Of a stretch of 50,358 nt of DNA, positions 100 through 38,015 are shown piece after piece. The DNA is taken from positions 1 through 50,358 of IMG/VR virus record IMGVR_UViG_3300030106_006546; one strand, given 5' to 3'. A program made the position numbers and the translations under genes. A model generated the notes under the pieces. That model did no database searches, was not told the DNA's origin, and saw nothing but the letters and a program-made list of their open reading frames with translations. Source of the DNA: a virus (lineage: Duplodnaviria > Caudoviricetes). Within the stretch, counting starts at the first letter, position 1. Each line of letters starts with the position of its first letter.

Positions 100-925
100 A
101 CCGGGGTTGATTGATGCCTACAATCAAACGATACCTTTTGCTATCAGTAAAGCTTTTAGCCCCGTTGAGAGCACGTTAAAGAAACCTAAAGACAAAACAA
201 TCACTGTTTCGGGGGAGCCAGGGAGCGACGAGGCTGGTGATTATACGAGCCGTGTGTATCTTTTGAATGAAAAAACCAAAGACGGTAAAACTATAGACGA
301 TAAAGCAAAGTCTCGACGCGGTATGTATACCATCCCCCCCGCAGGAATACTTGCTCTATCTCTCACGCCTTCTGAAGAGGCGGAGGCTCAAGAACAAAAG
401 CGTCAATCTCAAGAATTGCAGCGCACCTTTCCAGATCCCGAGGTGCGAGAAAGTGCAGGTATTTTAGGTGCTCTACGTGGTGCGGGTGAGGTCGCGTATG
501 AGGGACTATCAGATTTACTGATTGAGCCTTTTGTTGGTATGAGTGGCGCAGAGTTAGCATTTGAGTCAGGCGCAACCCCACAAGAGGCAGAGGCGGCAAA
601 GCGTCGTGCCATGCGTTTAGTAGACTTTGAGACGACCTCTCCTACAGGCCTACGTTACAAAGAAGCCGTGAAAAGCGGACTAGGTGACTTGGGCGAATAT
701 TTGATGAGTGAAGGTGAAAGAGGTCGCACAAGATCAGGTATGACGTTGCCGCCTAGTCGCGATGCTCTGCAATTACTTTTTCAAGAAGTGATTGATCCAG
801 CGGCAGAAGCAGTTACGGAAGGTGCGTTGGGTATATTGGGTTTGGACCCTAGAGACACAGAAGAAATGCAAAGGGTGCGACAAGAGGCTGCGCGGCCAGT
901 GATAGAAGCAATTCAGCCAATCTAA
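1..925 (+). CDS. C-terminal part of the origin-spanning ~1019-aa protein that starts at 48125
   Basis: The track ORF 5..925 is in frame with the open frame from 48125 through the 99-bp overlap. Contains the AAREGYDGVAF motif. Confidence 0.9.
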   Translation, partial: TLGVKYIFSRAAREGYDGVAFAPGEVHEKRWKRPGLIDAYNQTIPFAISKAFSPVESTLKKPKDKTITVSGEPGSDEAGDYTSRVYLLNEKTKDGKTIDDKAKSRRGMYTIPPAGILALSLTPSEEAEAQEQKRQSQELQRTFPDPEVRESAGILGALRGAGEVAYEGLSDLLIEPFVGMSGAELAFESGATPQEAEAAKRRAMRLVDFETTSPTGLRYKEAVKSGLGDLGEYLMSEGERGRTRSGMTLPPSRDALQLLFQEVIDPAAEAVTEGALGILGLDPRDTEEMQRVRQEAARPVIEAIQPI

Positions 926-927
926 AT

Positions 928-1128
928 TCATAGCTCCTCCAACCAAGACTGAAGCTTGCCCGCCTCAAATTTTTCGAAGGCAGTTTTCACCAGCTCAGGC
1001 TGACCCAGTCGCTCTGCTTCCGCATGAATGTCTGCTCGCTGACGTTTGCCACGTTCAAACACACGATGATCATCGCTGTACACAAAATACCAATCGTGAT
1101 CACGTAGCATTTGTTTCAGTTTATCCAT
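928..1128 (-). CDS. Small phage hypothetical protein (HDWYxxYSDD motif)
   Basis: 66-aa ORF with a GAGG RBS, overlapping the upstream gene; last gene of the leftward operon. Confidence 0.75.
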   Translation of the reverse strand: MDKLKQMLRDHDWYFVYSDDHRVFERGKRQRADIHAEAERLGQPELVKTAFEKFEAGKLQSWLEEL

Positions 1129-1342
1129 GAGACGCTACCTCAAACTCACTGAGTTTTTTCTCGATCGAGGTCCACAAACACTTCAGCTTGGATTCCTGGT
1201 CAGGGCTGAAAGCTTCATGTCGGAAACAGGTGCTCTCGATACCCCTCACACGCGGGTCATCAGAGCTCATCCGCATAAGGGTGTTGAGCAGCTCCAACTC
1301 CTCATTGGTAAACTGCAAATACTGTGTGCTAAGTAACGTCAT
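1121..1342 (-). CDS. Hypothetical protein directly downstream of the pentamer array
   Basis: 73-aa ORF with GGAGAG RBS upstream of the ATG. Confidence 0.65.
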   Translation of the reverse strand: MTLLSTQYLQFTNEELELLNTLMRMSSDDPRVRGIESTCFRHEAFSPDQESKLKCLWTSIEKKLSEFEVASHG

Positions 1343-1375
1343 TTTTGCTCTCCAGTCGTTTCTTCATATCAACTT

Positions 1376-1774
1376 TGACCTGCCATACCCAAGCGCACCT
1401 AATCACGCCTCAATGCAACTCGCGACAACCAACCCCACCACACCAGCCCTGCCGAGCCTTCCCCAAACCCATCTTGCCACACCTAACCGGGCCGCAAGGC
1501 ACCCGACAACGCCATGCAACACCTCGCCTGACCTGCCCTGCCTTGCCGTACCGTGACGGACCCCACCGTGCCGATTGCAACCCCGACCCGCCTGACCAGA
1601 CCTGCCCTGCCATAGCCAACCTCGCGCAACCACACGGAGACACGTCGTACCATACCTGCCTTACCGAATCCAAATCGACCTTGCCCTACCACAACAAAAC
1701 GGATCGTGAAGCACCCAACCCAAACATCCCAAAACTCACCTGACCTGCCAAGCCAAGCCTAACCCAACCTAACC
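1376..1774 (-). ncRNA. Phased GGY-NN pentamer array; candidate guide-RNA array (VIPR-like vrRNA)
   Basis: Counted by hand: 75 in-phase pentamers, 46 starting GGY and 72 with a pyrimidine at position 3. Six 4-nt GGC(A/T) phase breaks, each followed by GGT. Lies directly 3' of the RAMP-like operon. Confidence 0.85.
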
Positions 1775-2269
1775 GCCTTTGAGGTGCGTTTTGATTGGGT
1801 CAAGCACACCAGCCAACTCCGTCAGTTGGTCATACTTGTTTACAAATTGCTCAAGCTCTCGTTGTGCGTTTGCCAAAATTTGAGCCCTGAACTCAGGGTC
1901 TTTCATAGCCTCCACCGTTGAGACGTAAGAGCGCACGGTTTTTCCGAGATCGTTAGTGAGTGAAACACTCGTAAATACTCTTAATTTGGTAGGCGTGAAC
2001 GATTCAGGCACGTCAGCACTGGTCACATAAACCAAAGATCGTTTGATCTGTTTCTCAGTTGCCACCCGTTGTTTCTGTGCGGCGATCGAATCATCCCATT
2101 CAAAATCGTCGTGAAGAACAGAGTCGGGGTCGCGAGCGTGTTCGACCAGTTGTCCTGTGGGCGCGACACCACCCCATTGCTCATCGACAGCTCGTATTTC
2201 TTGTAACGCGAGATTGGGGTCTGCCTTGAAGACAGACCCCTTGGCCCACGCTACCGTGGTCACACTCAT
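1769..2269 (-). CDS. Accessory protein of the RAMP/pentamer-array locus (LHxxFEWDDxxAA family)
   Basis: 166 aa; start overlaps the stop of the RAMP-like gene (ATGA), and its stop codon lies within the first pentamers of the array. Confidence 0.8.
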   Translation of the reverse strand: MSVTTVAWAKGSVFKADPNLALQEIRAVDEQWGGVAPTGQLVEHARDPDSVLHDDFEWDDSIAAQKQRVATEKQIKRSLVYVTSADVPESFTPTKLRVFTSVSLTNDLGKTVRSYVSTVEAMKDPEFRAQILANAQRELEQFVNKYDQLTELAGVLDPIKTHLKGG

Positions 2270-2877
2270 GCCGCTTCCTCGAGAATGGCAAATTCACGAT
2301 CGAGTCGGAAGCGACCATACTCACCGCCTTTTTCGGGACGCCACTCACCTAGCCCGATGCCAAACCCGGCACGCTCAATCAAATTGAGAATGGCCGATTG
2401 CGTGAGTGCCTTTGAGTCATATTCGAACTTCAGCGTCATCGCCCACTGCATAAACTCAGGCCGATAGCGCAGGTCAGTCGATCCCGCACCAACCCTCACA
2501 ATGTCCTCGCGCATCTTAGGGTCATCGGTTTCCAGCGCGACAAGGTTTAGCTCAAAATCGTCAGGCCGAATGAACAACGATTTTTTGAGCAAGGTCTTTT
2601 CCAGCCCAATGTCTTTGTGAGCCGCACCGACTAAACAAGCTTTGATACCACCTGCTGGGAACCCGTAGCGCCCGTCACTCAACTTGTAACTGGCGTTACG
2701 GAACTCTTGTGCGGGGTCGCGCACGTCGCGATTCTTAACGCGAATCCCTGCGTGCTTATCCCTCAGCATTTGAAGCGCTTTCTCATCCCACTTGTGCTGA
2801 ATGAAAGGACTGGTGCCCTCGATCCGAACCGTCATCAAAGTTTTTTGAATTGGTTCAAGTGCTATTACATTACCCAT
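2266..2877 (-). CDS. Solitary RAMP/Cas7-like RNA-binding protein (Vipr-like)
   Basis: 203 aa with N-terminal strand plus SP (VRIEGTSPFIQH), a GFPAGGIKACL helix motif, YRPEF, and a C-terminal Gly-rich loop GFGIGLGEWRPEKGGEYGRF typical of RAMPs. AAGGAG RBS; no other cas genes present. Confidence 0.8.
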   Translation of the reverse strand: MGNVIALEPIQKTLMTVRIEGTSPFIQHKWDEKALQMLRDKHAGIRVKNRDVRDPAQEFRNASYKLSDGRYGFPAGGIKACLVGAAHKDIGLEKTLLKKSLFIRPDDFELNLVALETDDPKMREDIVRVGAGSTDLRYRPEFMQWAMTLKFEYDSKALTQSAILNLIERAGFGIGLGEWRPEKGGEYGRFRLDREFAILEEAA

Positions 2878-2955
2878 TTTGTATCTCCTTCGCCCGGGGG
2901 CGTACTGTTAGTTTTTTGCCTGGCAACTCCAGACAAAGCCGAACGTGGCACAGTA

Positions 2956-2972
2956 TGCGTGTCCATGTCAAC
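2956..2972 (-). promoter_or_regulatory. Leftward promoter of the RAMP operon: TTGACA plus phage motif variant (ACATGGACACGC)
   Basis: The minus strand reads GTTGACATGGACACGCA about 80 nt upstream of the start codon. Confidence 0.55.
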
Positions 2973-3016
2973 ACTTTTGCACAAAAAAATATTTCAATGT
3001 TTTTTGTATAAATATA

Positions 3017-3045
3017 TTGTACATCGACACGGAATATGATTTGAT
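3017..3045 (+). promoter_or_regulatory. Rightward promoter with phage motif TTGTACATCGACACGGA
   Basis: Follows an AT-rich tract; the same motif occurs at about 20070-20087 (-) and 39362-39379 (+). Confidence 0.55.
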
Positions 3046-3073
3046 GCGTTATGGAAATCAAACGGGGGTTGTT

Positions 3074-3241
3074 ATGTACATTGAATTGACGGATGACCAG
3101 GCAGACGTGCTGCTGAACCAAGTAGCCGACTGGAAGCACAAAGTCGTGAAAGGTAGTGATCTTCAACGACAGCTTCAGGAAATAGAAAAGGTTTTGGTTT
3201 TGGCTATTTTGCAAAAAGAGGGAGGCATCAATTATGGATAA
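3074..3241 (+). CDS. Hypothetical protein (55 aa)
   Basis: Likely ATG at 3074 after GGGGG, within track ORF 2945..3241. Confidence 0.6.
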   Translation: MYIELTDDQADVLLNQVADWKHKVVKGSDLQRQLQEIEKVLVLAILQKEGGINYG

Positions 3242-3470
3242 AGCAGCATTGAAAAAGCGGTTTTACAATCGTGTGCGTCGCACTTGTCTCAAGCACAACA
3301 TCGATATTGTGTACGATGGTGTGCCAAAGGCGGTATATGGCGTGGAGCTGGTGAAGGATGGTGTCGTGATGTTTGCCGATCGCACAAACGACAACATGCC
3401 GCTCGACATCAACTGGCAACGACTGCATGAAGAGATGACCGACTACGGTTACAAAGGTGGTGTGAAATGA
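3234..3470 (+). CDS. Hypothetical protein
   Basis: 78 aa, GGAGG RBS, overlaps both neighbours. Confidence 0.75.
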   Translation: MDKAALKKRFYNRVRRTCLKHNIDIVYDGVPKAVYGVELVKDGVVMFADRTNDNMPLDINWQRLHEEMTDYGYKGGVK

Positions 3471-3877
3471 GCATTCCAGAAAAACCAGTTTGGCTATCCC
3501 AGAAATTTAAGGTCTCAAAAATGACGCGAGGCTGGCATCCGAGTCTTAGGGGGTGCTTGTTAATTCAGTGCGCCAACGAAGATCACAAGCTAGAGGTCTG
3601 GTACTCCCCCAACGGAGAAACAGCCAGCGATTATGGCTGGTTAGATGTGAGATCCGCAGTCAACCGAGAAAAACCAGTTTGGCTATCCAGCAAATTCAAG
3701 GTCTCAAATTTTACGCAAGGTTGGCAACCAGATCTTGGGGGGTGCTTGGTAAGTGAGTGCGCCAACGAGGATCACAAGCTACAAATCTGGTACTCCCCGA
3801 ACGGAGAAACAGGCAGCAGTTATGGCTGGTTAGAAATTTCTTCCGCAGTCAACGAGAAAGGCATCAAGGACGTGTGA
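3467..3877 (+). CDS. Hypothetical protein made of two tandem 63-aa repeats
   Basis: EKPVWLS...CANEDHKL..WYSPNGET...YGWL...SAVN occurs twice; 189-bp DNA period (3478 and 3667). Confidence 0.75.
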   Translation: MSIPEKPVWLSQKFKVSKMTRGWHPSLRGCLLIQCANEDHKLEVWYSPNGETASDYGWLDVRSAVNREKPVWLSSKFKVSNFTQGWQPDLGGCLVSECANEDHKLQIWYSPNGETGSSYGWLEISSAVNEKGIKDV

Positions 3878-3878
3878 A

Positions 3879-4667
3879 ATGAGTGGACCGTATAAGCAAA
3901 TCAACAACATCTACGGTTACATTCGCGTGTCCACGGATGAGCAGGTCAAGTCGGGCATTTCGCTCGAAACCCAGATGCAACAGATCAGCGAGTTTGTGCG
4001 CGAGAAGTATAACCGTAAGGTCACGCAGTTTTTTGCTGATGAAGGCATCAGTGGTACTCACGCGGTTTTAGATCGTCCCGCAAGCCGTGAAATGACCGAC
4101 GTCATTGATGAGCACGATGTCGTTATTTGCACTAGGCTTGATCGATTAAGCCGATCAAGTTCTGATTTATTATCGCTTATTCCGCAACTCCAAGAGATCG
4201 GAATCACTTTGTTTTTCTGCGAGCAGTTTGGTGAAATGCCGATCGTTTACCCCGATGCTGTCAAAACAAAGGGTTTAGATGCGAAGTTTGACATGAATCA
4301 CATGGCCAATCAGATCATGTTGATGGTACTGTCTGCCGTCGCCGAGATTGAACATGCGACGATTAAAGACCGTTTTTCAGCGGGTAAACTGGACTGGGCG
4401 TCACGCGGGTATGCGATCGGTGGATCACCACCCTACGGATTCCGCCATGTAGAGGTCAAGACGGGAAGCAAAACCCGCAAGCTTTTGGAAGAAGTGCCTG
4501 AAGAGCAAGCTGTCTTGAAAACCATCTACCGTCTGCACAAGCGTGGCTTGGGTCCACGCAAGATAGCAACGCAGGTCAATAGCTTGCACGACATCCCACC
4601 GCTGACACATTCGAAAGTTCAGCGCATTCTCAACCGCAAGTTTCAAGGTTTGCCTAAAGCCGCGTAG
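3879..4667 (+). CDS. Serine recombinase (resolvase/invertase catalytic domain plus short C-terminal DNA-binding region)
   Basis: YGYIRVST catalytic motif, DEGISG, LDRLSRS, GGSPPYGF. Confidence 0.92.
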   Translation: MSGPYKQINNIYGYIRVSTDEQVKSGISLETQMQQISEFVREKYNRKVTQFFADEGISGTHAVLDRPASREMTDVIDEHDVVICTRLDRLSRSSSDLLSLIPQLQEIGITLFFCEQFGEMPIVYPDAVKTKGLDAKFDMNHMANQIMLMVLSAVAEIEHATIKDRFSAGKLDWASRGYAIGGSPPYGFRHVEVKTGSKTRKLLEEVPEEQAVLKTIYRLHKRGLGPRKIATQVNSLHDIPPLTHSKVQRILNRKFQGLPKAA

Positions 4668-4834: not shown

Positions 4835-5490
4835 TGTCAGATGAGACGCTGACAGGCTGGGGTCGCGGCACTTGGGGTGAGGCGGCCTGGGGTACACCGT
4901 TACCCGTAGAGCCCACTGGTCTTGCCGCAACGCTGGGCGTTGGCTCTGTTTCCGTTCTCGCCAAAGCGAATGTTATACCCACAGGCCAAGTCGCAACGGC
5001 TTCACCTGGCTCGATTCAAATAGTCGCCAAAGCGATCACACAAATCAGCACAGGCGTCGGTGCAACCGCCGCAATCGGCTCTGTCACGGCCGTAGCAAAA
5101 GCGACTGCGTCACCCGCGGGCTTGGCCGTCACAACCGGGGTCGGAACTCTCACCACAACGGGTTTGGCAAATATTGTTCTCGATGGGCAACAAACCACCG
5201 CCGCGTTCGGTGAAATACAAACTGTCGCTAAGGCTTTGATCCAGGTGACGGGCAACGGAATCACCACGAATATTGGCAACACGCTAGTTTATGGGGAGAT
5301 AGACACCTCTCAGTCGCCAAACTACACTACGATTGATGATAGCCAGACCGCGAGTTTTGCTGAGATCAGCACAAGTCAAACACCCAGCTTTGTGACGGTG
5401 GATGATAGTCAGTCAGCGAGTTACTCAAACGTCAGCACAAGTCAAACGCCCAATTATCAGGAACTAGATGCTGGGCGATCAGCAGCATAG
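4834..5490 (+). CDS. Putative virion/tail protein, Thr/Gly/Ala-rich
   Basis: WGRGTWGEAAWG N-terminal motif and C-terminal 11-aa SQxxx[YF] repeats; precedes the tail fibre. Confidence 0.7.
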   Translation: MSDETLTGWGRGTWGEAAWGTPLPVEPTGLAATLGVGSVSVLAKANVIPTGQVATASPGSIQIVAKAITQISTGVGATAAIGSVTAVAKATASPAGLAVTTGVGTLTTTGLANIVLDGQQTTAAFGEIQTVAKALIQVTGNGITTNIGNTLVYGEIDTSQSPNYTTIDDSQTASFAEISTSQTPSFVTVDDSQSASYSNVSTSQTPNYQELDAGRSAA

Positions 5491-10844: not shown

Positions 10845-11220
10845 TGGTTGTAGTATTTTTGAGCGAACACCATACATTCCTGAGACAAAACCCGTCGAAA
10901 TCGTTACGATCACTGAACCTGCGCCTATCTATCACCCCGCTTTACCAAACGCAATTACGACCAGCCCAGTTGAATGGAAGGTTTTGACACCTGAAACTAT
11001 GCAAGAATATTTGGAAGATCTCGAGGCTGGCAACGCGCCTACAAATGCCTATTACGGACTATCTACAAAAGGCTATGAAAACCTTTCAAGCAACATGGCC
11101 GAGGTCAAACGGTATATCCGTCAAGTATTGAATATTATAGACTACTATAGAAATATAGACTCAGGGACTGACGATGAGAGTGACGAGCAGCGAAGGAATC
11201 GCACTGATAAAGAAATTTGA
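10810..11220 (+). CDS. Putative o-spanin (Rz1-like lipoprotein)
   Basis: Lipobox LLISGC, Pro-rich; likely GTG start at 10810. Confidence 0.65.
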   Translation: MIWRLLPILLISGCSIFERTPYIPETKPVEIVTITEPAPIYHPALPNAITTSPVEWKVLTPETMQEYLEDLEAGNAPTNAYYGLSTKGYENLSSNMAEVKRYIRQVLNIIDYYRNIDSGTDDESDEQRRNRTDKEI

Positions 11221-35534: not shown

Positions 35535-38015
35535 ATGCCTTTAGAAAAGTTGCCACAAGGATACAGCACCGCGTCGTCCACACAGAAGACGACTGACGAG
35601 GATATTTTAGCTCAACAAAATCGGCCTGATCCCTCCGTGCTTGAGAGAATCATAAACTTGCCAAAAGAGGCGGCGGATCTTGCTTTAGGTAAAGATCAAC
35701 CGATTGAGTTTCCGCAGCTCCCAGAGCTGACTGAAATGGGTACGAACGCGCCTGGTTTTTTTGAAGCGTTTATACCCAATGTCAAAGCTATGCTTACTCG
35801 AGATGACTACGGTAAGGCAGAAATTATTCATCGCACATTCAAAGATGATCCCCGGTATGGCGGTAAATATCGCGATAAGTTTGGACTGCCAATTATTGTG
35901 TGGAACAACGTGCCGTACTATGTGAATAAGCCCGGTTTTTCAACGCAAGACTTGAATACTGTTTTAGGTGAAATGTTGCGTTACACACCAGCCAGCAAAT
36001 TCACTGCCAAAGGGAAAACTCTTTTCGAAACAGGTGTCAGGGGTTTGGGCGCCTATAGTGCAACGGAGGCGGCATCTTTAGCGGGTGAGTTTCTCTTAAC
36101 ACCAGAAACAACAGCAGAAAAAAAACGGACAGCAGGTGATCTTGCAGAGCAAGTTGGTGTTTCGACCGCGATTGGGGTTGGCGCTGATGTGGCACTACCG
36201 CCAGTGGCAAAAGCAATTGGAAAGGGCATTAGAAAAGGCGCAGAGGCGGTGACGCGGACGGGCTCTACGGTGGGCTCTCGATTGGATGCTATATTCCCAC
36301 GTTTTTCTTTTGACGCTGTTTCTGAATCTAAATATCCGCTGACACAGGGACAAAGAACGGCGCCGCCTCCTCAAGGAGTGACACCTCGGCAAACAGAACA
36401 ATTAGGCCGAGAAGATCAATTACGACAAATGGCATCGTCTGACCCAGCAACAATGGTCATACGAGGTTTTGACGACGCACAATTAAACGCAATTCGAAAT
36501 GACGCGCTTAGTCTGCAAGAAGAGTTCGGGGCTGGCACGGTTGCTCCTCAAGGCATTTACGGAAACATCCCCAGTGCCGCTGCTGAAGAAGCGCAAACAT
36601 TAATAACGGGTGCGGCGGAAAAACTCAAAGAAGAGGCAGGAACTTTATATGAATTAGTCAAAGGCTTGGATACGCCACCTGTGATGACACCCCAGGGTGT
36701 TCAACAAGTCGCACAAGAGCTATTGGACACGATTCCTGAAATAATGGCACCAAGCCAGGTTTTAGAGGGTCCGCTTTATCGAGAAATGACACAGCTCCGT
36801 CGTCTCCGGGAACTAGCGAAAAAACCAAAGTTCAAAGATCAGTCCTTAAAAAATTTACACGGCTATCAAAAAAGGTTGCGAGCAGCGATCGGACAAGTGC
36901 AGCCTGGTTCAACAGAAGAGCTTGTGTTGATACAAATGAAAAACAAGCTCGATAACGCAATCTATGAGGGCGTGGAGCGTGGATTTATTATTGGCGACCA
37001 AGAAGCGTTAGATCAATTGCAACAGGCAACGGGCTTGTACGCAGACTACATGAACACTGTCGGAAGAGGTATTGGCAGGACACGACAAGAGAGGGCTGCC
37101 AATACAATCTTAGAGCAACTTTCGAACACTCAATACACCCCCGTGCAAGTGACAAATTTGTTATTCGGGCAAAATAAATTTGCTCCGAATCAGGCCGTGA
37201 GTCTTACGCTAGACAAGCTTCAAAAATCTCTTGAGCCTACAGATTACGAGCAGTTTATAGCCTTGTTGAAAGATGGCATCATGACCAAAGCCTTCGCTGG
37301 TAAAGGCGGTGAGGTCACACGCAAATCAATCGTGGAAAATTACAATGACGTGTTTGTAAAAAACAGGCGCATCATTGAAAAAATATTTACGCCTGACGAA
37401 CTTGCAAAAATCAAGGAGTTCCGTGCTAACGTCTTACCGACCTTGTGGGCGGAAATCAAACTTAACCCTTCTGCTAGTGGTTACACTTTGATGAGTGCAG
37501 CCATGCGGCTTGGGATGCTTTATTCTCCCAGCGTCATGGGCAGAGCTGCGTTAGCAAAAGGTTTGGACATTGCAGAAAGCACAAAAGCACGGGAAGATGC
37601 TTTTGGAGCGGTAAGCCAAACCTTACAGCGAATGCAAACACCGATGCTCTCTAATGCTGCTCAAGGGGCCATAAGAGCTACTCTTTTTTCACAAGAAGAG
37701 GCGGATAAAGCACCCTCAGAAGGACGAGAAAGAGATCGTTTATTAGAGACCATTGAAAAGCTTGATTTCGAACCAGGAAGCCCCCCACTTACGACTGAGG
37801 ATGTAAGCCCGGCACCGCCTATACCAGAGCCGACGCCCGTATCAATGTTAGAGCGACAGCCATTATTCGATCCCCTCCCAGGCACTGACACCACACCATT
37901 GACGGCGGGATTTGATCCCTCGCAATCGGCGATTGTTTTGCCTCGAGCAGACGATAGAGAGTTGGCGGGTAGGTTACGTGGTCCGCTAGGCGGGATCGCT
38001 TCCCTCGCTGGGTAG
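35535..38015 (+). CDS. Putative large internal virion/ejection protein
   Basis: 826 aa, helical; ends GGIASLAG. Confidence 0.65.
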   Translation: MPLEKLPQGYSTASSTQKTTDEDILAQQNRPDPSVLERIINLPKEAADLALGKDQPIEFPQLPELTEMGTNAPGFFEAFIPNVKAMLTRDDYGKAEIIHRTFKDDPRYGGKYRDKFGLPIIVWNNVPYYVNKPGFSTQDLNTVLGEMLRYTPASKFTAKGKTLFETGVRGLGAYSATEAASLAGEFLLTPETTAEKKRTAGDLAEQVGVSTAIGVGADVALPPVAKAIGKGIRKGAEAVTRTGSTVGSRLDAIFPRFSFDAVSESKYPLTQGQRTAPPPQGVTPRQTEQLGREDQLRQMASSDPATMVIRGFDDAQLNAIRNDALSLQEEFGAGTVAPQGIYGNIPSAAAEEAQTLITGAAEKLKEEAGTLYELVKGLDTPPVMTPQGVQQVAQELLDTIPEIMAPSQVLEGPLYREMTQLRRLRELAKKPKFKDQSLKNLHGYQKRLRAAIGQVQPGSTEELVLIQMKNKLDNAIYEGVERGFIIGDQEALDQLQQATGLYADYMNTVGRGIGRTRQERAANTILEQLSNTQYTPVQVTNLLFGQNKFAPNQAVSLTLDKLQKSLEPTDYEQFIALLKDGIMTKAFAGKGGEVTRKSIVENYNDVFVKNRRIIEKIFTPDELAKIKEFRANVLPTLWAEIKLNPSASGYTLMSAAMRLGMLYSPSVMGRAALAKGLDIAESTKAREDAFGAVSQTLQRMQTPMLSNAAQGAIRATLFSQEEADKAPSEGRERDRLLETIEKLDFEPGSPPLTTEDVSPAPPIPEPTPVSMLERQPLFDPLPGTDTTPLTAGFDPSQSAIVLPRADDRELAGRLRGPLGGIASLAG

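What the first reader, a model, noticed from the sequence alone, without database searches (positions are those of the whole stretch)
1376..1774. The array is segmented into discrete guide-sized units by 4-nt GGC(A/T) phase breaks
Seen on the minus strand: a 5-pentamer lead (1774-1746), then units of 17 (1745-1657), 10 (1656-1603), 13 (1602-1534), 17 (1533-1445) and 12 (1444-1381) pentamers. Each ends in GGCA (once GGCT) and the next restarts with GGT. The arithmetic closes exactly: 75x5 + 6x4 = 399. Unit edges are the most GGY-perfect and the middles are more degenerate, but position 3 stays a pyrimidine in 72 of 75 pentamers. Inference: the GGCA|GGT junctions are processing sites or filament boundaries, giving about five separate guide RNAs of 54-89 nt, analogous to a multi-spacer array.
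Basis: partly seen in the sequence, partly recalled or inferred. Interest (0 to 1): 0.9.

Follow-up and report, generated by a model that had tools for sequence, protein, structure and literature searches.

The report
Phage VIPR guide-RNA array, head-to-tail units
This stretch is the guide-RNA array of a recently described phage "VIPR" system, a CRISPR-like relative, in which five guides lie head to tail and are separated only by a repeat that is one base short.

Summary
Window 1376-1774 (minus strand) is 75 GGYNN pentamers interrupted by six 4-nt GGCA/GGCT steps. An unbiased tiling recovers the five internal breaks, and position 3 is a pyrimidine in 72 of 75 pentamers.

It is the vrRNA array of a VIPR system (bioRxiv 10.64898/2026.04.26.720920). 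The upstream 203-aa gene is a Cas7-like RAMP homologous to the SUSP1 Vipr and keeps its GGY-binding residues.

The GGCA step recurs across relatives: 356 of 419 units in 85 sources have GGCA on both sides. Related arrays and marine metagenome contigs differ by whole units of 5n+4 nt.

Unit 3 (1602-1534) and homologous guides in relatives match, under the published "NN-skip-one" code, a conserved HGGxSTGP motif of a small-terminase-like gene in other phages. The match starts at the first pentamer after the junction and does not cross it.

RNA ends were not observed. The layout matches the "staggered vrRNA arrays" named, but not experimentally confirmed, in that preprint. This is a new member of a known kind. 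No targets were found for units 1, 2 and 5; unit 4 was not validly tested.

The parts
2266..2877 (-). vipr gene: 203-aa Cas7-like RAMP that is inferred to coat the guide RNA, one protomer per pentamer
   Evidence: AF2 model on a 40-row alignment has pLDDT 87.1. The top PDB fold hits are Csm3/Cmr4/Cas7 chains, E 4e-6, TM about 0.5. hhalign of family alignment A1 against the SUSP1 Vipr ORF gives 98.6% probability, E 8.7e-16, 173 columns. It is the only match in the SUSP1 genome. It matches phrog_4652 at 4.9e-35.
1769..2269 (-). candidate vap (VIPR accessory) gene, 166 aa, function unknown
   Evidence: It lies between vipr and the array, and its stop codon lies inside the first pentamers. It matches phrog_15946 (unknown function) at 1.5e-17. 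There is no Pfam hit. The nearest Atlas clusters are unnamed viral proteins. Seven viral contigs carry relatives at 76-98% identity.
1750..1774 (-). leader: 5 near-perfect pentamers conserved in relatives; it supplies the first junction and is probably not a guide
   Evidence: the same lead sequence, with small changes, sits before the first GGCA in L002, L003, L006 and L008.
1746..1749 (-). junction 1, 4-nt step GGCA
1661..1745 (-). unit 1, 17 pentamers (guide; target not found)
   Evidence: The NN letters are identical in L002 although three GGY triplets differ. A seed of pentamers 9-16 gave 4 viral hits, all at chance on extension.
1657..1660 (-). junction 2, GGCA; site of a 59-nt (11 pentamers + 4) insertion in a contig of run X3
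   Evidence: table 8, record 10.
1607..1656 (-). unit 2, 10 pentamers (guide; target not found); absent as a whole from L003/L005
   Evidence: An exact 9-pentamer seed gave 0 viral hits.
1603..1606 (-). junction 3, GGCA
1538..1602 (-). unit 3, 13 pentamers: guide against the HGGxSTGP motif of a small-terminase-like phage gene; absent as a whole from L002 and from contigs of runs X4 and X13
   Evidence: It matches 22 of 22 NN letters of pentamers 1-11 on L252, L236 and L232, with 20 of those letters imposed by the search. Homologous guides match 25 of 26 (L003 guide on L158) and 21 of 22 (L021 guide on L140). Unit loss.
1534..1537 (-). junction 4, GGCA
1449..1533 (-). unit 4, 17 pentamers (guide; target not validly tested)
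   Evidence: My search pattern was mistyped (see Tried and rejected).
1445..1448 (-). junction 5, GGCT (the one variant)
   Evidence: GGCT also stands at this junction in L002, L003 and L005.
1385..1444 (-). unit 5, 12 pentamers (guide; target not found)
   Evidence: A consensus seed gave 0 viral hits.
1376..1384 (-). terminal junction GGCA plus closing pentamer GGTCA, comparable to the terminal repeat of an array
   Evidence: Arrays of relatives also end with GGCA plus one or two pentamers.

Best explanation
The region is the guide-RNA (vrRNA) array of a phage-encoded VIPR system (Viral Interference Programmable Repeat; three 2026 bioRxiv preprints), in its 'staggered' layout.

The operon on the minus strand reads vipr (2877-2266), a candidate vap gene (2269-1769), then the array (1774-1376).

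By homology with the solved SUSP1 complex, each Vipr protomer holds one GGY triplet. It leaves the next two bases (NN) free to pair with DNA that reads NNxNNx..., so one target base in three is skipped.

Each run of 10-17 pentamers between two GGCA steps is one guide; there are five of them. The GGCA step puts the next GGY 4 nt instead of 5 nt downstream.

I infer that this breaks the register of the protein filament. That would end one ribonucleoprotein and start the next, and would be where the transcript is cut or the filaments part.

Unit 3 is directed at a conserved HGGxSTGP-coding stretch of a small-terminase-like gene of other phages. The skipped base falls on the codon's third position, and the guide has the sense of the coding strand, so it can pair with DNA but not with the mRNA. 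The likely effect is transcriptional silencing of a competitor's packaging gene.

Shown here: the repeat anatomy, homology of the protein, family-wide conservation of the junction, whole-unit gain and loss, and a target for unit 3. Inferred: transcription, coating by Vipr, cutting at the junction, and silencing.
For: Anatomy and statistics.

Protein:
- The fold matches Csm3/Cmr4.
- Profile match to the SUSP1 Vipr is 98.6%, E 8.7e-16.
- The SUSP1 residues said to read GGY (H17, R138, D177, W178, R179; section 5 of 10.64898/2026.04.26.720927) align with H28, R139, E178, W179 and R180. These are invariant or nearly invariant in 40 relatives.

Linkage: 74 of the 75 related loci (L002-L076) have a G-rich stretch of period about 5 beside the gene, on the gene's strand, down to about 30% identity.

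Junction:
- 356 of 419 units are GGCA-bounded on both sides, and 13 more are GGCA/GGCT.
- All 370 units bounded by GGCA or GGCT on both sides lie on the gene's strand.
- Unit length is 7-18 pentamers, most often 10.

Whole-unit indels: (69-nt skip in runs X4 and X13; 59-nt insertion in X3).

Target:
- A 15-letter NNx pattern from the shared NN letters of three homologous guides hit 115 viral contigs. Two 16-letter patterns hit only 4 and 10.
- Of the 80 hits listed, the unconstrained sixth codon is Ser in 76 and the H/Q codon is His in 79.
- All 8 ORFs inspected share the Cys-rich context.
- All 6 proteins tested hit phrog_6177, and 2 of them also hit phrog_9231, 'terminase small subunit'.
- In L158 the gene is followed by a 561-aa ORF, then portal and head-morphogenesis genes.
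- The guides carry AG or TC at the Ser codon, matching the two Ser codon families.
- All 31 metagenome hits to the window-specific pattern lie on the same motif.
- Matching does not extend past the junction: 0-3 of 6-8 letters at five offsets.
- The motif is absent from the window and from five related VIPR phages, so there is no self-target.

The RNA folds no better than shuffles (z +0.29), and Rfam finds nothing. Both fit a protein-coated single strand.

Literature: VIPR, the 1-nt skip rule and 'staggered arrays ... 1 nt overlapping positions' (results and figure legends of 10.64898/2026.04.26.720920).
Against: - No RNA evidence for this locus. The one RNA run holds a single 162-nt contig over 2130-2291, not the array. 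Transcription and ends are therefore unobserved.
- The preprint says the staggered layout, unlike two other layouts, was not confirmed by sRNA-seq.
- Only one of five guides has a target. Units 1, 2 and 5 gave none by exact seeds, and unit 4 was not validly tested.
- For the window's own unit 3, 20 of the 22 matching letters were imposed by the search. Its last two pentamers match poorly (0-2 of 4).
- Local scans of guides against relatives' flanks and whole genomes showed no preference for the 1-nt skip over 0 or 2.
- The 166-aa gene could not be tied to any named vap family.
- I could not see figure S18 or the supplements, so identity with the published 'staggered' layout rests on its legend.
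Confidence: 0.85

Rival explanations
1. It is a VIPR array, but the junctions are not cut. The whole 399-nt tract acts as one RNA carrying several targeting modules. The 4-nt steps serve only as hinges or register resets between adjacent Vipr filaments on the same molecule.
For: No RNA ends were observed. The tract has no hairpin, tail or ribozyme that would explain cutting. The structural preprint notes natural vrRNAs of up to 30 repeats (discussion passage).
Against: Units are gained and lost as whole cassettes, and each array ends with a terminal junction, as expected if each unit must be flanked by two junctions. The preprint's legend for figure S18 speaks of 'boundaries of individual processed vrRNAs'.
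Confidence: 0.12
2. It is a DNA-level element rather than an RNA array. Candidates are a G-rich strand forming two-layer G-quadruplexes or R-loops, a recombination hot spot, or a protein-binding iteron field.
For: The strand is 44% G with GG every 5 nt. Unit turnover suggests recombination at the repeated junctions.
Against: It does not explain the following:
- Position 3 is kept as a pyrimidine in 95% of 3229 pentamers while positions 4-5 are free.
- The array always lies on the strand of a RAMP gene.
- The free letters spell, with one base skipped, a conserved gene motif of other phages.
Confidence: 0.02
3. It is a chance low-complexity tract or a protein-coding segment.
For: Several ORFs of 69-132 aa overlap it on both strands.
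Against: The period-4.9 signal was reached by 0 of 500 shuffles. Period-3 power over the array is low, 0.12-1.13 in the windows listed from 1321 to 1741. The same architecture occurs in relatives from many samples.
Confidence: 0.01

Closest known systems
VIPR 'staggered vrRNA arrays' (bioRxiv 10.64898/2026.04.26.720920, figure S18 legend; I read the results, two methods sections and the legends, not the figures or supplements)
   Same: It is phage-borne, with a RAMP-like Vipr gene plus a second gene, followed by tandem GGYNN repeats. [quoted passage not shown] That is arithmetically the same as the 4-nt step seen here.
   Different: The held text mentions neither GGCA, marine phages, mycobacteriophages nor terminase. 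I therefore cannot tell whether the published example has this junction motif, or which of types I-VII this locus belongs to. The preprint did not confirm this layout by sRNA-seq.
Type II VIPR of Escherichia phage SUSP1 (NC_028808.2), the experimentally and structurally characterised system
   Same: The Vipr is homologous (98.6%, E 8.7e-16) with conserved GGY-reading residues. Repeats are GGYNN on the gene's strand. The targeting code is NN-skip-one, with the skipped base on the codon's third position.
   Different: In SUSP1 each vrRNA is a repeat tract followed by a non-repeat tail and spacer sequence, and one vrRNA lies upstream of the gene. Here units abut with only GGCA between them, with no tail, and all lie downstream. 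Protein identity in the profile alignment is 23%.
Class 1 CRISPR arrays and Cas7 backbones (type III Csm3/Cmr4)
   Same: The protein fold is the same. A filament of RAMP subunits measures out a guide. The array holds several guides that are gained and lost as cassettes.
   Different: - The period is 5 nt, not 6.
- The protein reads three bases of every repeat unit, and the guide is discontinuous.
- There are no 23-50-nt direct repeats between spacers: Tandem Repeats Finder reports only a 10-nt-period row at 1753-1774.
- Of cas genes, only the eight ORFs between 2 and 4667 were scanned against Pfam and PHROGs, and none matched a Cas family. The rest of the window was not searched for cas genes.

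Membership tests
VIPR system | A Vipr protein: a minimal RAMP (RRM core, G-loop, thumb) homologous to the published Viprs | tested here: met
   Fold hits to Csm3/Cmr4/Cas7 at E 4e-6. hhalign against the SUSP1 Vipr ORF gives 98.6%, E 8.7e-16. It is the single profile match in the SUSP1 genome, E 9.2e-16.
VIPR system | Residues that read G1, G2 and Y3 (SUSP1 H17, R138, D177, W178, R179) | tested here: met
   They align with H28, R139, E178, W179 and R180. R139, E178 and R180 are invariant, and H28 and W179 are at least 90% conserved in 40 relatives. D177 is replaced by E.
VIPR system | Tandem GGYNN (YNNGG) repeats, at least 4 units, beside the gene | tested here: met
   75 pentamers, 46 of them perfect GGY and 72 with Y at position 3. 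The period-4.9 signal has z = 16.
VIPR system | GGY conserved, NN variable | tested here: met
   Window: positions 4 and 5 are near-uniform. In 3229 pentamers of relatives, G1 is 94%, G2 79% and Y3 95%, with NN mixed.
VIPR system | Natural targets that match the NN letters with one base skipped | tested here: met
   Met for unit 3 and its homologues. No target was found for units 1, 2 and 5. Unit 4 was not validly tested.
VIPR system | An accessory vap gene (vap1-6) | tested here: inconclusive
   A 166-aa gene lies in the expected place, but it has no Pfam hit, matches a PHROG of unknown function and has unnamed Atlas neighbours. The published vap sequences are in supplements I could not see.
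VIPR system | vrRNAs are expressed and bound by Vipr | not testable with these tools
   Only one RNA contig, over 2130-2291, was found.
Staggered vrRNA array (sub-architecture) | Adjacent vrRNAs offset so that they overlap by 1 nt (a 4-nt step), with no tail or ribozyme between them | tested here: met
   Five internal 4-nt steps were recovered blind. Rfam finds no ribozyme. Units abut directly. Figure S18 itself was not visible.
CRISPR array | Direct repeats of about 23-50 nt separated by unique spacers | tested here: not met
   Tandem Repeats Finder finds only a 10-nt-period row at 1753-1774. The only recurring element is the junction of about 9-14 nt.

The most novel reading that the evidence does not exclude
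The one-base-short repeat (GGCA followed at once by GG) may itself be the punctuation. Because Vipr protomers need GGY every 5 nt, the filament would end at the short step and a new one would start. Guides would then be measured and released by the effector protein alone, without a tail, ribozyme or Cas6-like nuclease. The repeated junctions would also act as recombination points through which whole guides are swapped between phages, a primitive form of array turnover. Guides in different arrays that hit the same HGGxSTGP motif but start two codons apart would then reflect repeated acquisition or re-registering of guides.
Probability: 0.3. Interest if true: 0.7.

Novelty: new member of a known kind. 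Interest (0 to 1): 0.45.

Why it matters
VIPR was first described in 2026 and is proposed as the ancestor of CRISPR effector complexes. Its 'staggered' array layout is the one layout the authors named without confirming by sRNA-seq.

This locus and its relatives supply several things:
- a precise junction rule (GGCA, then GGY);
- its frequency, 356 of 419 units;
- natural cassette gain and loss in marine populations;
- a concrete target, a small-terminase-like gene hit on a conserved motif with the skipped base on the wobble position;
- tractable cultured carriers, Mycobacterium phage Saal and Gordonia phage ODay.

Together these make the question of how tail-less guides are delimited directly testable. 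For genome annotation, such arrays lie in gaps annotated as empty, or under spurious ORFs.

Tried and rejected
1. Rfam at gathering thresholds over the whole window gave 0 matches. blastn of 900-2900 against 50,697 phage records gave no match.

2. The single-sequence AF2 model of the 203-aa protein was useless (pLDDT 33.3). It was redone with an alignment.

3. Target searches that failed:
- Unit 2, exact seed of 9 pentamers: 0 viral hits.
- Unit 3, exact seed of 9 pentamers: 0 hits.
- Unit 5, consensus seed of 18 letters: 0 hits.
- Unit 1, pentamers 9-16: 4 hits, each matching only 21-22 of 34 letters on extension, which is chance.
The pattern was out of register, so its 10 hits (13-17 of 34 letters) mean nothing and the scan was wasted.
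- All these scans demand exact matches. Targets with one mismatch in the seed would be missed, so these blanks are weak.

4. Local mismatch-tolerant scans:
- Window guides against the window and 75 loci.
- 303 guides against the same.
- 90 guides against six whole related phage genomes.
- None gave a hit above chance, and skip 1 did not differ from skip 0 or 2. These phages therefore do not visibly target one another or themselves.
- In the scan the database had been selected with a unit-3 pattern, so the excess for skip 1 there is independent only for the L021 guide.

5. The pair analysis (difference rates 0.03, 0.07 and 0.09 at GGY against 0.49 and 0.50 at NN) is confounded. A 70% identity cut-off admits unrelated units, because GGY makes up 60% of the letters. 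I do not use it as evidence.

6. Host: the closest genome hit (73%) is a contig binned to a Sphingobacteriales MAG, and other hits are scattered over phyla. I draw no host from this. The runs holding the sequence are marine or seawater metagenomes. Two of them may be the source sample.

7. RNA run X20 holds one contig over 2130-2291 only. This shows nothing about expression of the array.

8. The sigma-70 and terminator scan of 800-3400 gave no more sites than shuffles and none that delimits the array.

9. The VIPR type (I-VII) could not be assigned. The classification rests on a tree and on supplements that I could not see.

Full report
**What is there**

On the minus strand, window 1774-1376 reads as GGYNN pentamers. 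There is a lead of 5 pentamers, then units of 17, 10, 13, 17 and 12 pentamers. Each closes with a 4-nt GGCA (GGCT once), and a final GGTCA follows; 75x5 + 6x4 = 399.

Position 3 is a pyrimidine in 72 of 75 pentamers, G1 is present in 65 and G2 in 53. Positions 4 and 5 are close to uniform.

The phase breaks are needed. With any fixed 5-nt frame only 31-37 of 79 pentamers have a pyrimidine at position 3.

Fourier power peaks at 4.9 nt (7.62 against 0.70 +/- 0.43 in 500 dinucleotide-preserving shuffles, none reaching it) and is at background at exactly 5.0. That is expected for 81 steps in 399 nt. Nowhere else in the 50,358-base window is there such a signal.

It scores only G, G, Y and charges a penalty for 4- or 6-nt steps. 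At all three penalties it places 4-nt steps at 1749, 1660, 1606, 1537 and 1448; the lowest penalty added two more inside the vap gene, outside the array. The sixth break lies at the array's end and is supported by relatives, which end the same way.

The tract is not coding. Period-3 power is low there. As RNA it folds no better than shuffles (z +0.29). Rfam finds nothing.

**Context**

The window is a complete virus record with terminal repeats. Runs that hold the sequence are marine or seawater metagenomes.

On the same strand, upstream of the array, lie a 203-aa gene (2877-2266, phrog_4652) and a 166-aa gene (2269-1769, phrog_15946). Both PHROG families are of unknown function, and neither protein has a Pfam hit.

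Searching viral contigs with the 203-aa protein gave 71 loci down to about 29% identity. Of the 75 related loci scanned (L002-L076), 74 have a G-rich stretch of period about 5 beside the gene. Protein and array therefore form a conserved module.

**Identification**

A literature search found bioRxiv 10.64898/2026.04.26.720920. I read its results, two methods sections and its figure legends. Figures and supplements were not available.

It describes VIPR systems with these features:
- a minimal RAMP protein (Vipr) and an accessory gene (vap);
- vrRNAs of 9-16 YNNGG repeats;
- GGY held by the protein, with the NN letters pairing with double-stranded DNA under a '1 nt skip rule';
- action against competing phages and satellites.

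It names several array layouts. [quoted passage not shown] The text says that the other two non-type-II layouts, but not this one, were confirmed by sRNA-seq.

Two companion preprints were consulted. For 10.64898/2026.04.26.720927 I read the outline, section 5 and some passages. For 10.64898/2026.10.15.759431 I read the outline and some passages. They give the filament structure (one protomer per repeat) and a satellite-phage conflict.

**Membership tests**

With a 40-row alignment the 203-aa protein models at pLDDT 87.1. Its best PDB matches are Csm3/Cmr4/Cas7 chains (E 4e-6, TM about 0.5).

The family profile finds exactly one place in the SUSP1 genome (E 9.2e-16). hhalign to that 200-aa ORF gives 98.6% probability over 173 columns.

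The SUSP1 residues reported to read G1, G2 and Y3 (H17, R138, D177, W178, R179) align with H28, R139, E178, W179 and R180. These are invariant or nearly invariant in the family.

In SUSP1 itself the vrRNAs are repeat tracts followed by non-repeat tails and spacers. In the window the units abut. This locus therefore belongs to the family but has the other, 'staggered' layout.

The 166-aa gene sits where a vap would, but it could not be tied to a named vap.

**Are the units real modules?** Four lines of evidence say yes.

(i) The junction is conserved across the family. I tiled both strands of 85 sources (84 loci plus the window). Of 419 units of at least 7 pentamers between two non-5-nt steps, 356 have GGCA on both sides and 13 have GGCA/GGCT. 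All 370 units bounded by GGCA or GGCT on both sides lie on the strand of the vipr gene, with lengths of 7-18 pentamers. The fourth letter, A, is not scored by the tiling. The next pentamer starts with G (100%), G (91%) and C/T (68%/32%).

(ii) Edges are better formed than middles. GGY is perfect in 0.89 of the first two pentamers, 0.85 of the last and 0.61-0.72 between. The preprint also mentions 'internal degeneracy'.

(iii) Whole units come and go. L002 (vipr 100%, vap 98% identical) lacks exactly unit 3, and L003/L005 lack exactly unit 2. L006 has 14 units.

Contigs of two independent marine runs (X4, X13) skip 69 nt at 1530-1598, with 10 nt of positional ambiguity. That is unit 3 with its GGCA. 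A contig of run X3 carries 59 extra letters at the junction at 1657-1660. Both lengths are 5n+4.

One further variant replaces 76 nt by 22, a net change of 54 (also 5n+4). Another joint (118 nt) has unknown content.

(iv) Arrays end with a junction plus one or two pentamers, like a terminal repeat.

**A target, and where the match starts and stops**

Exact-seed scans for units 1, 2, 3 and 5 failed, and one for unit 4 was mistyped.

Unit 3 has homologues in L003/L005 and L015/L016 that keep most NN letters while their GGY triplets drift.

A pattern of the 15 letters they share, written NNx, hit 115 viral contigs. Two 16-letter patterns had hit 4 and 10.

The pattern forces x-(H/Q)-G-G-x-x-T-G-P-x when translated, so the motif itself is not evidence. 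The unforced features are:
- The H/Q codon is His in 79 of 80 listed hits.
- The free sixth codon is Ser in 76 of 80.
- All 8 ORFs inspected share a Cys-rich 'C..C...RC.xHGGxSTGP.T.EGK' context.
- All 6 proteins tested hit phrog_6177, and 2 of them also hit phrog_9231, 'terminase small subunit'.
- In L158 the gene is followed by a 561-aa ORF, then portal and head-morphogenesis genes.
- Of 19 phage records with a tblastn match (16 of them Bacillus phages), 7 call it a putative small terminase.

The L003 guide matches L158 at 25 of 26 letters over all 13 pentamers, from junction to junction. That is 10 of the 11 unforced letters. It matches 24 of 26 on four more contigs and 23 of 26 on 17 more.

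The guides carry AG (L003) or TC (window, L015) at the Ser codon, matching the two Ser codon families seen in the targets.

A fourth guide, the first unit of L021, was not used to design any pattern. It matches L140 at 21 of 22 letters on the same motif, starting two codons later.

For the window's own unit 3, a 20-letter pattern hit 31 metagenome contigs, all on this motif. Three of them (L252, L236, L232) match all 22 letters of pentamers 1-11. The last two pentamers (GGCAA GGCAG) match 0-2 of 4.

Within arrays the last pentamer's NN is somewhat conserved (0.49 against about 0.33), so it may be part of a handle.

Upstream of pentamer 1 and downstream of the unit, the neighbouring units' letters match at chance (0-3 of 6-8 at five offsets).

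The guides have the sense of the coding strand, so they could pair with the template DNA strand but not with the mRNA.

The motif is absent from all six frames of the window and of five related VIPR phages.

**Mechanism**

Shown here: the anatomy, the homology, the junction rule, cassette turnover, and a target for one guide.

Inferred from the SUSP1 structures: Vipr protomers bind one per pentamer, sequester GGY and present NN.

My inference: because GGCA is followed at once by GG, the next GGY comes after 4 nt instead of 5. A filament cannot continue in register, so one complex ends and the next begins there. Whether the RNA is cut, and by what, is unknown.

The likely outcome is silencing of a competitor phage's packaging gene.

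**Limits**

- There are no RNA data for this locus.
- Only one of five guides has a target.
- The evidence for the window's own unit 3 is largely imposed by the search.
- Local scans did not discriminate between skip rules.
- The type could not be assigned, and figure S18 and the supplements were not visible.
- The held main text of the first preprint (and, for GGCA, Mycobacterium and marine, also the third) does not contain the words GGCA, Mycobacterium or marine; 'terminase' is absent from the first and occurs in the third only in unrelated methods passages. That does not show these things are absent from figures or supplements.

**Verdict**

The object is a new member of a kind described in 2026 preprints.

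Interest is moderate. It is not a new class. It does document the unconfirmed 'staggered' layout in detail, gives it a junction rule and a natural target, and points to cultured phages (Saal, ODay) where the processing question can be settled.

Noticed in passing
L262 (Mycobacterium phage Saal NC_023580.1, about 36577-36830) and L263 (Gordonia phage ODay MW534375.1, about 10983-11180): Cultured actinophages carry the same GGCA-punctuated arrays in gaps with no annotated feature. Saal has 4 units (11, 11, 11 and 8 pentamers) upstream of gene 51. ODay has 3 units (10, 7 and 9) downstream of gene 19. Both genes are Vipr homologues annotated as hypothetical (41% and 40% identity to the window's protein).
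   Followed up: partly
L252:2826-2865 (metagenome contig): The best match to the window's unit 3 has an in-frame TGA at the W/C codon of HGG(W/C)STGP. This could be TGA recoding, a pseudogene or an assembly error.
   Followed up: no
L021 about 5178-5236, against L140:2021: The first unit of a more distant array (67% Vipr identity) hits the same HGGxSTGP motif at 21 of 22 letters but starts two codons later than the window's unit 3. This suggests truncation or a separate origin of guides against one site.
   Followed up: partly
window 3478-3859: A 189-nt tandem duplication (2.0 copies, 84% matches) lies inside ORF 3467-3877 (136 aa). It gives two copies of a domain of about 63 aa, just upstream of a serine recombinase gene (3879-4667; Resolvase PF00239, 3.1e-27).
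   Followed up: no
window 1403-1743, both strands: ORFs of 69-132 aa overlap the array on both strands. They are by-products of the G-rich repeat and would be false gene calls.
   Followed up: yes
L013 about 5347, against L120:5996: An 8-pentamer guide of a relative matches another viral contig at 15 of 16 letters under the 1-nt skip. This is borderline against chance (about 0.02 expected per guide of that length), and the target gene was not examined.
   Followed up: no
L025, L076, L006: Some relatives carry very long arrays: 26, 17 and 13 distinct GGCA-bounded units. In some loci (for example L028, L029, L033, L074) the array lies upstream of vipr rather than downstream.
   Followed up: no
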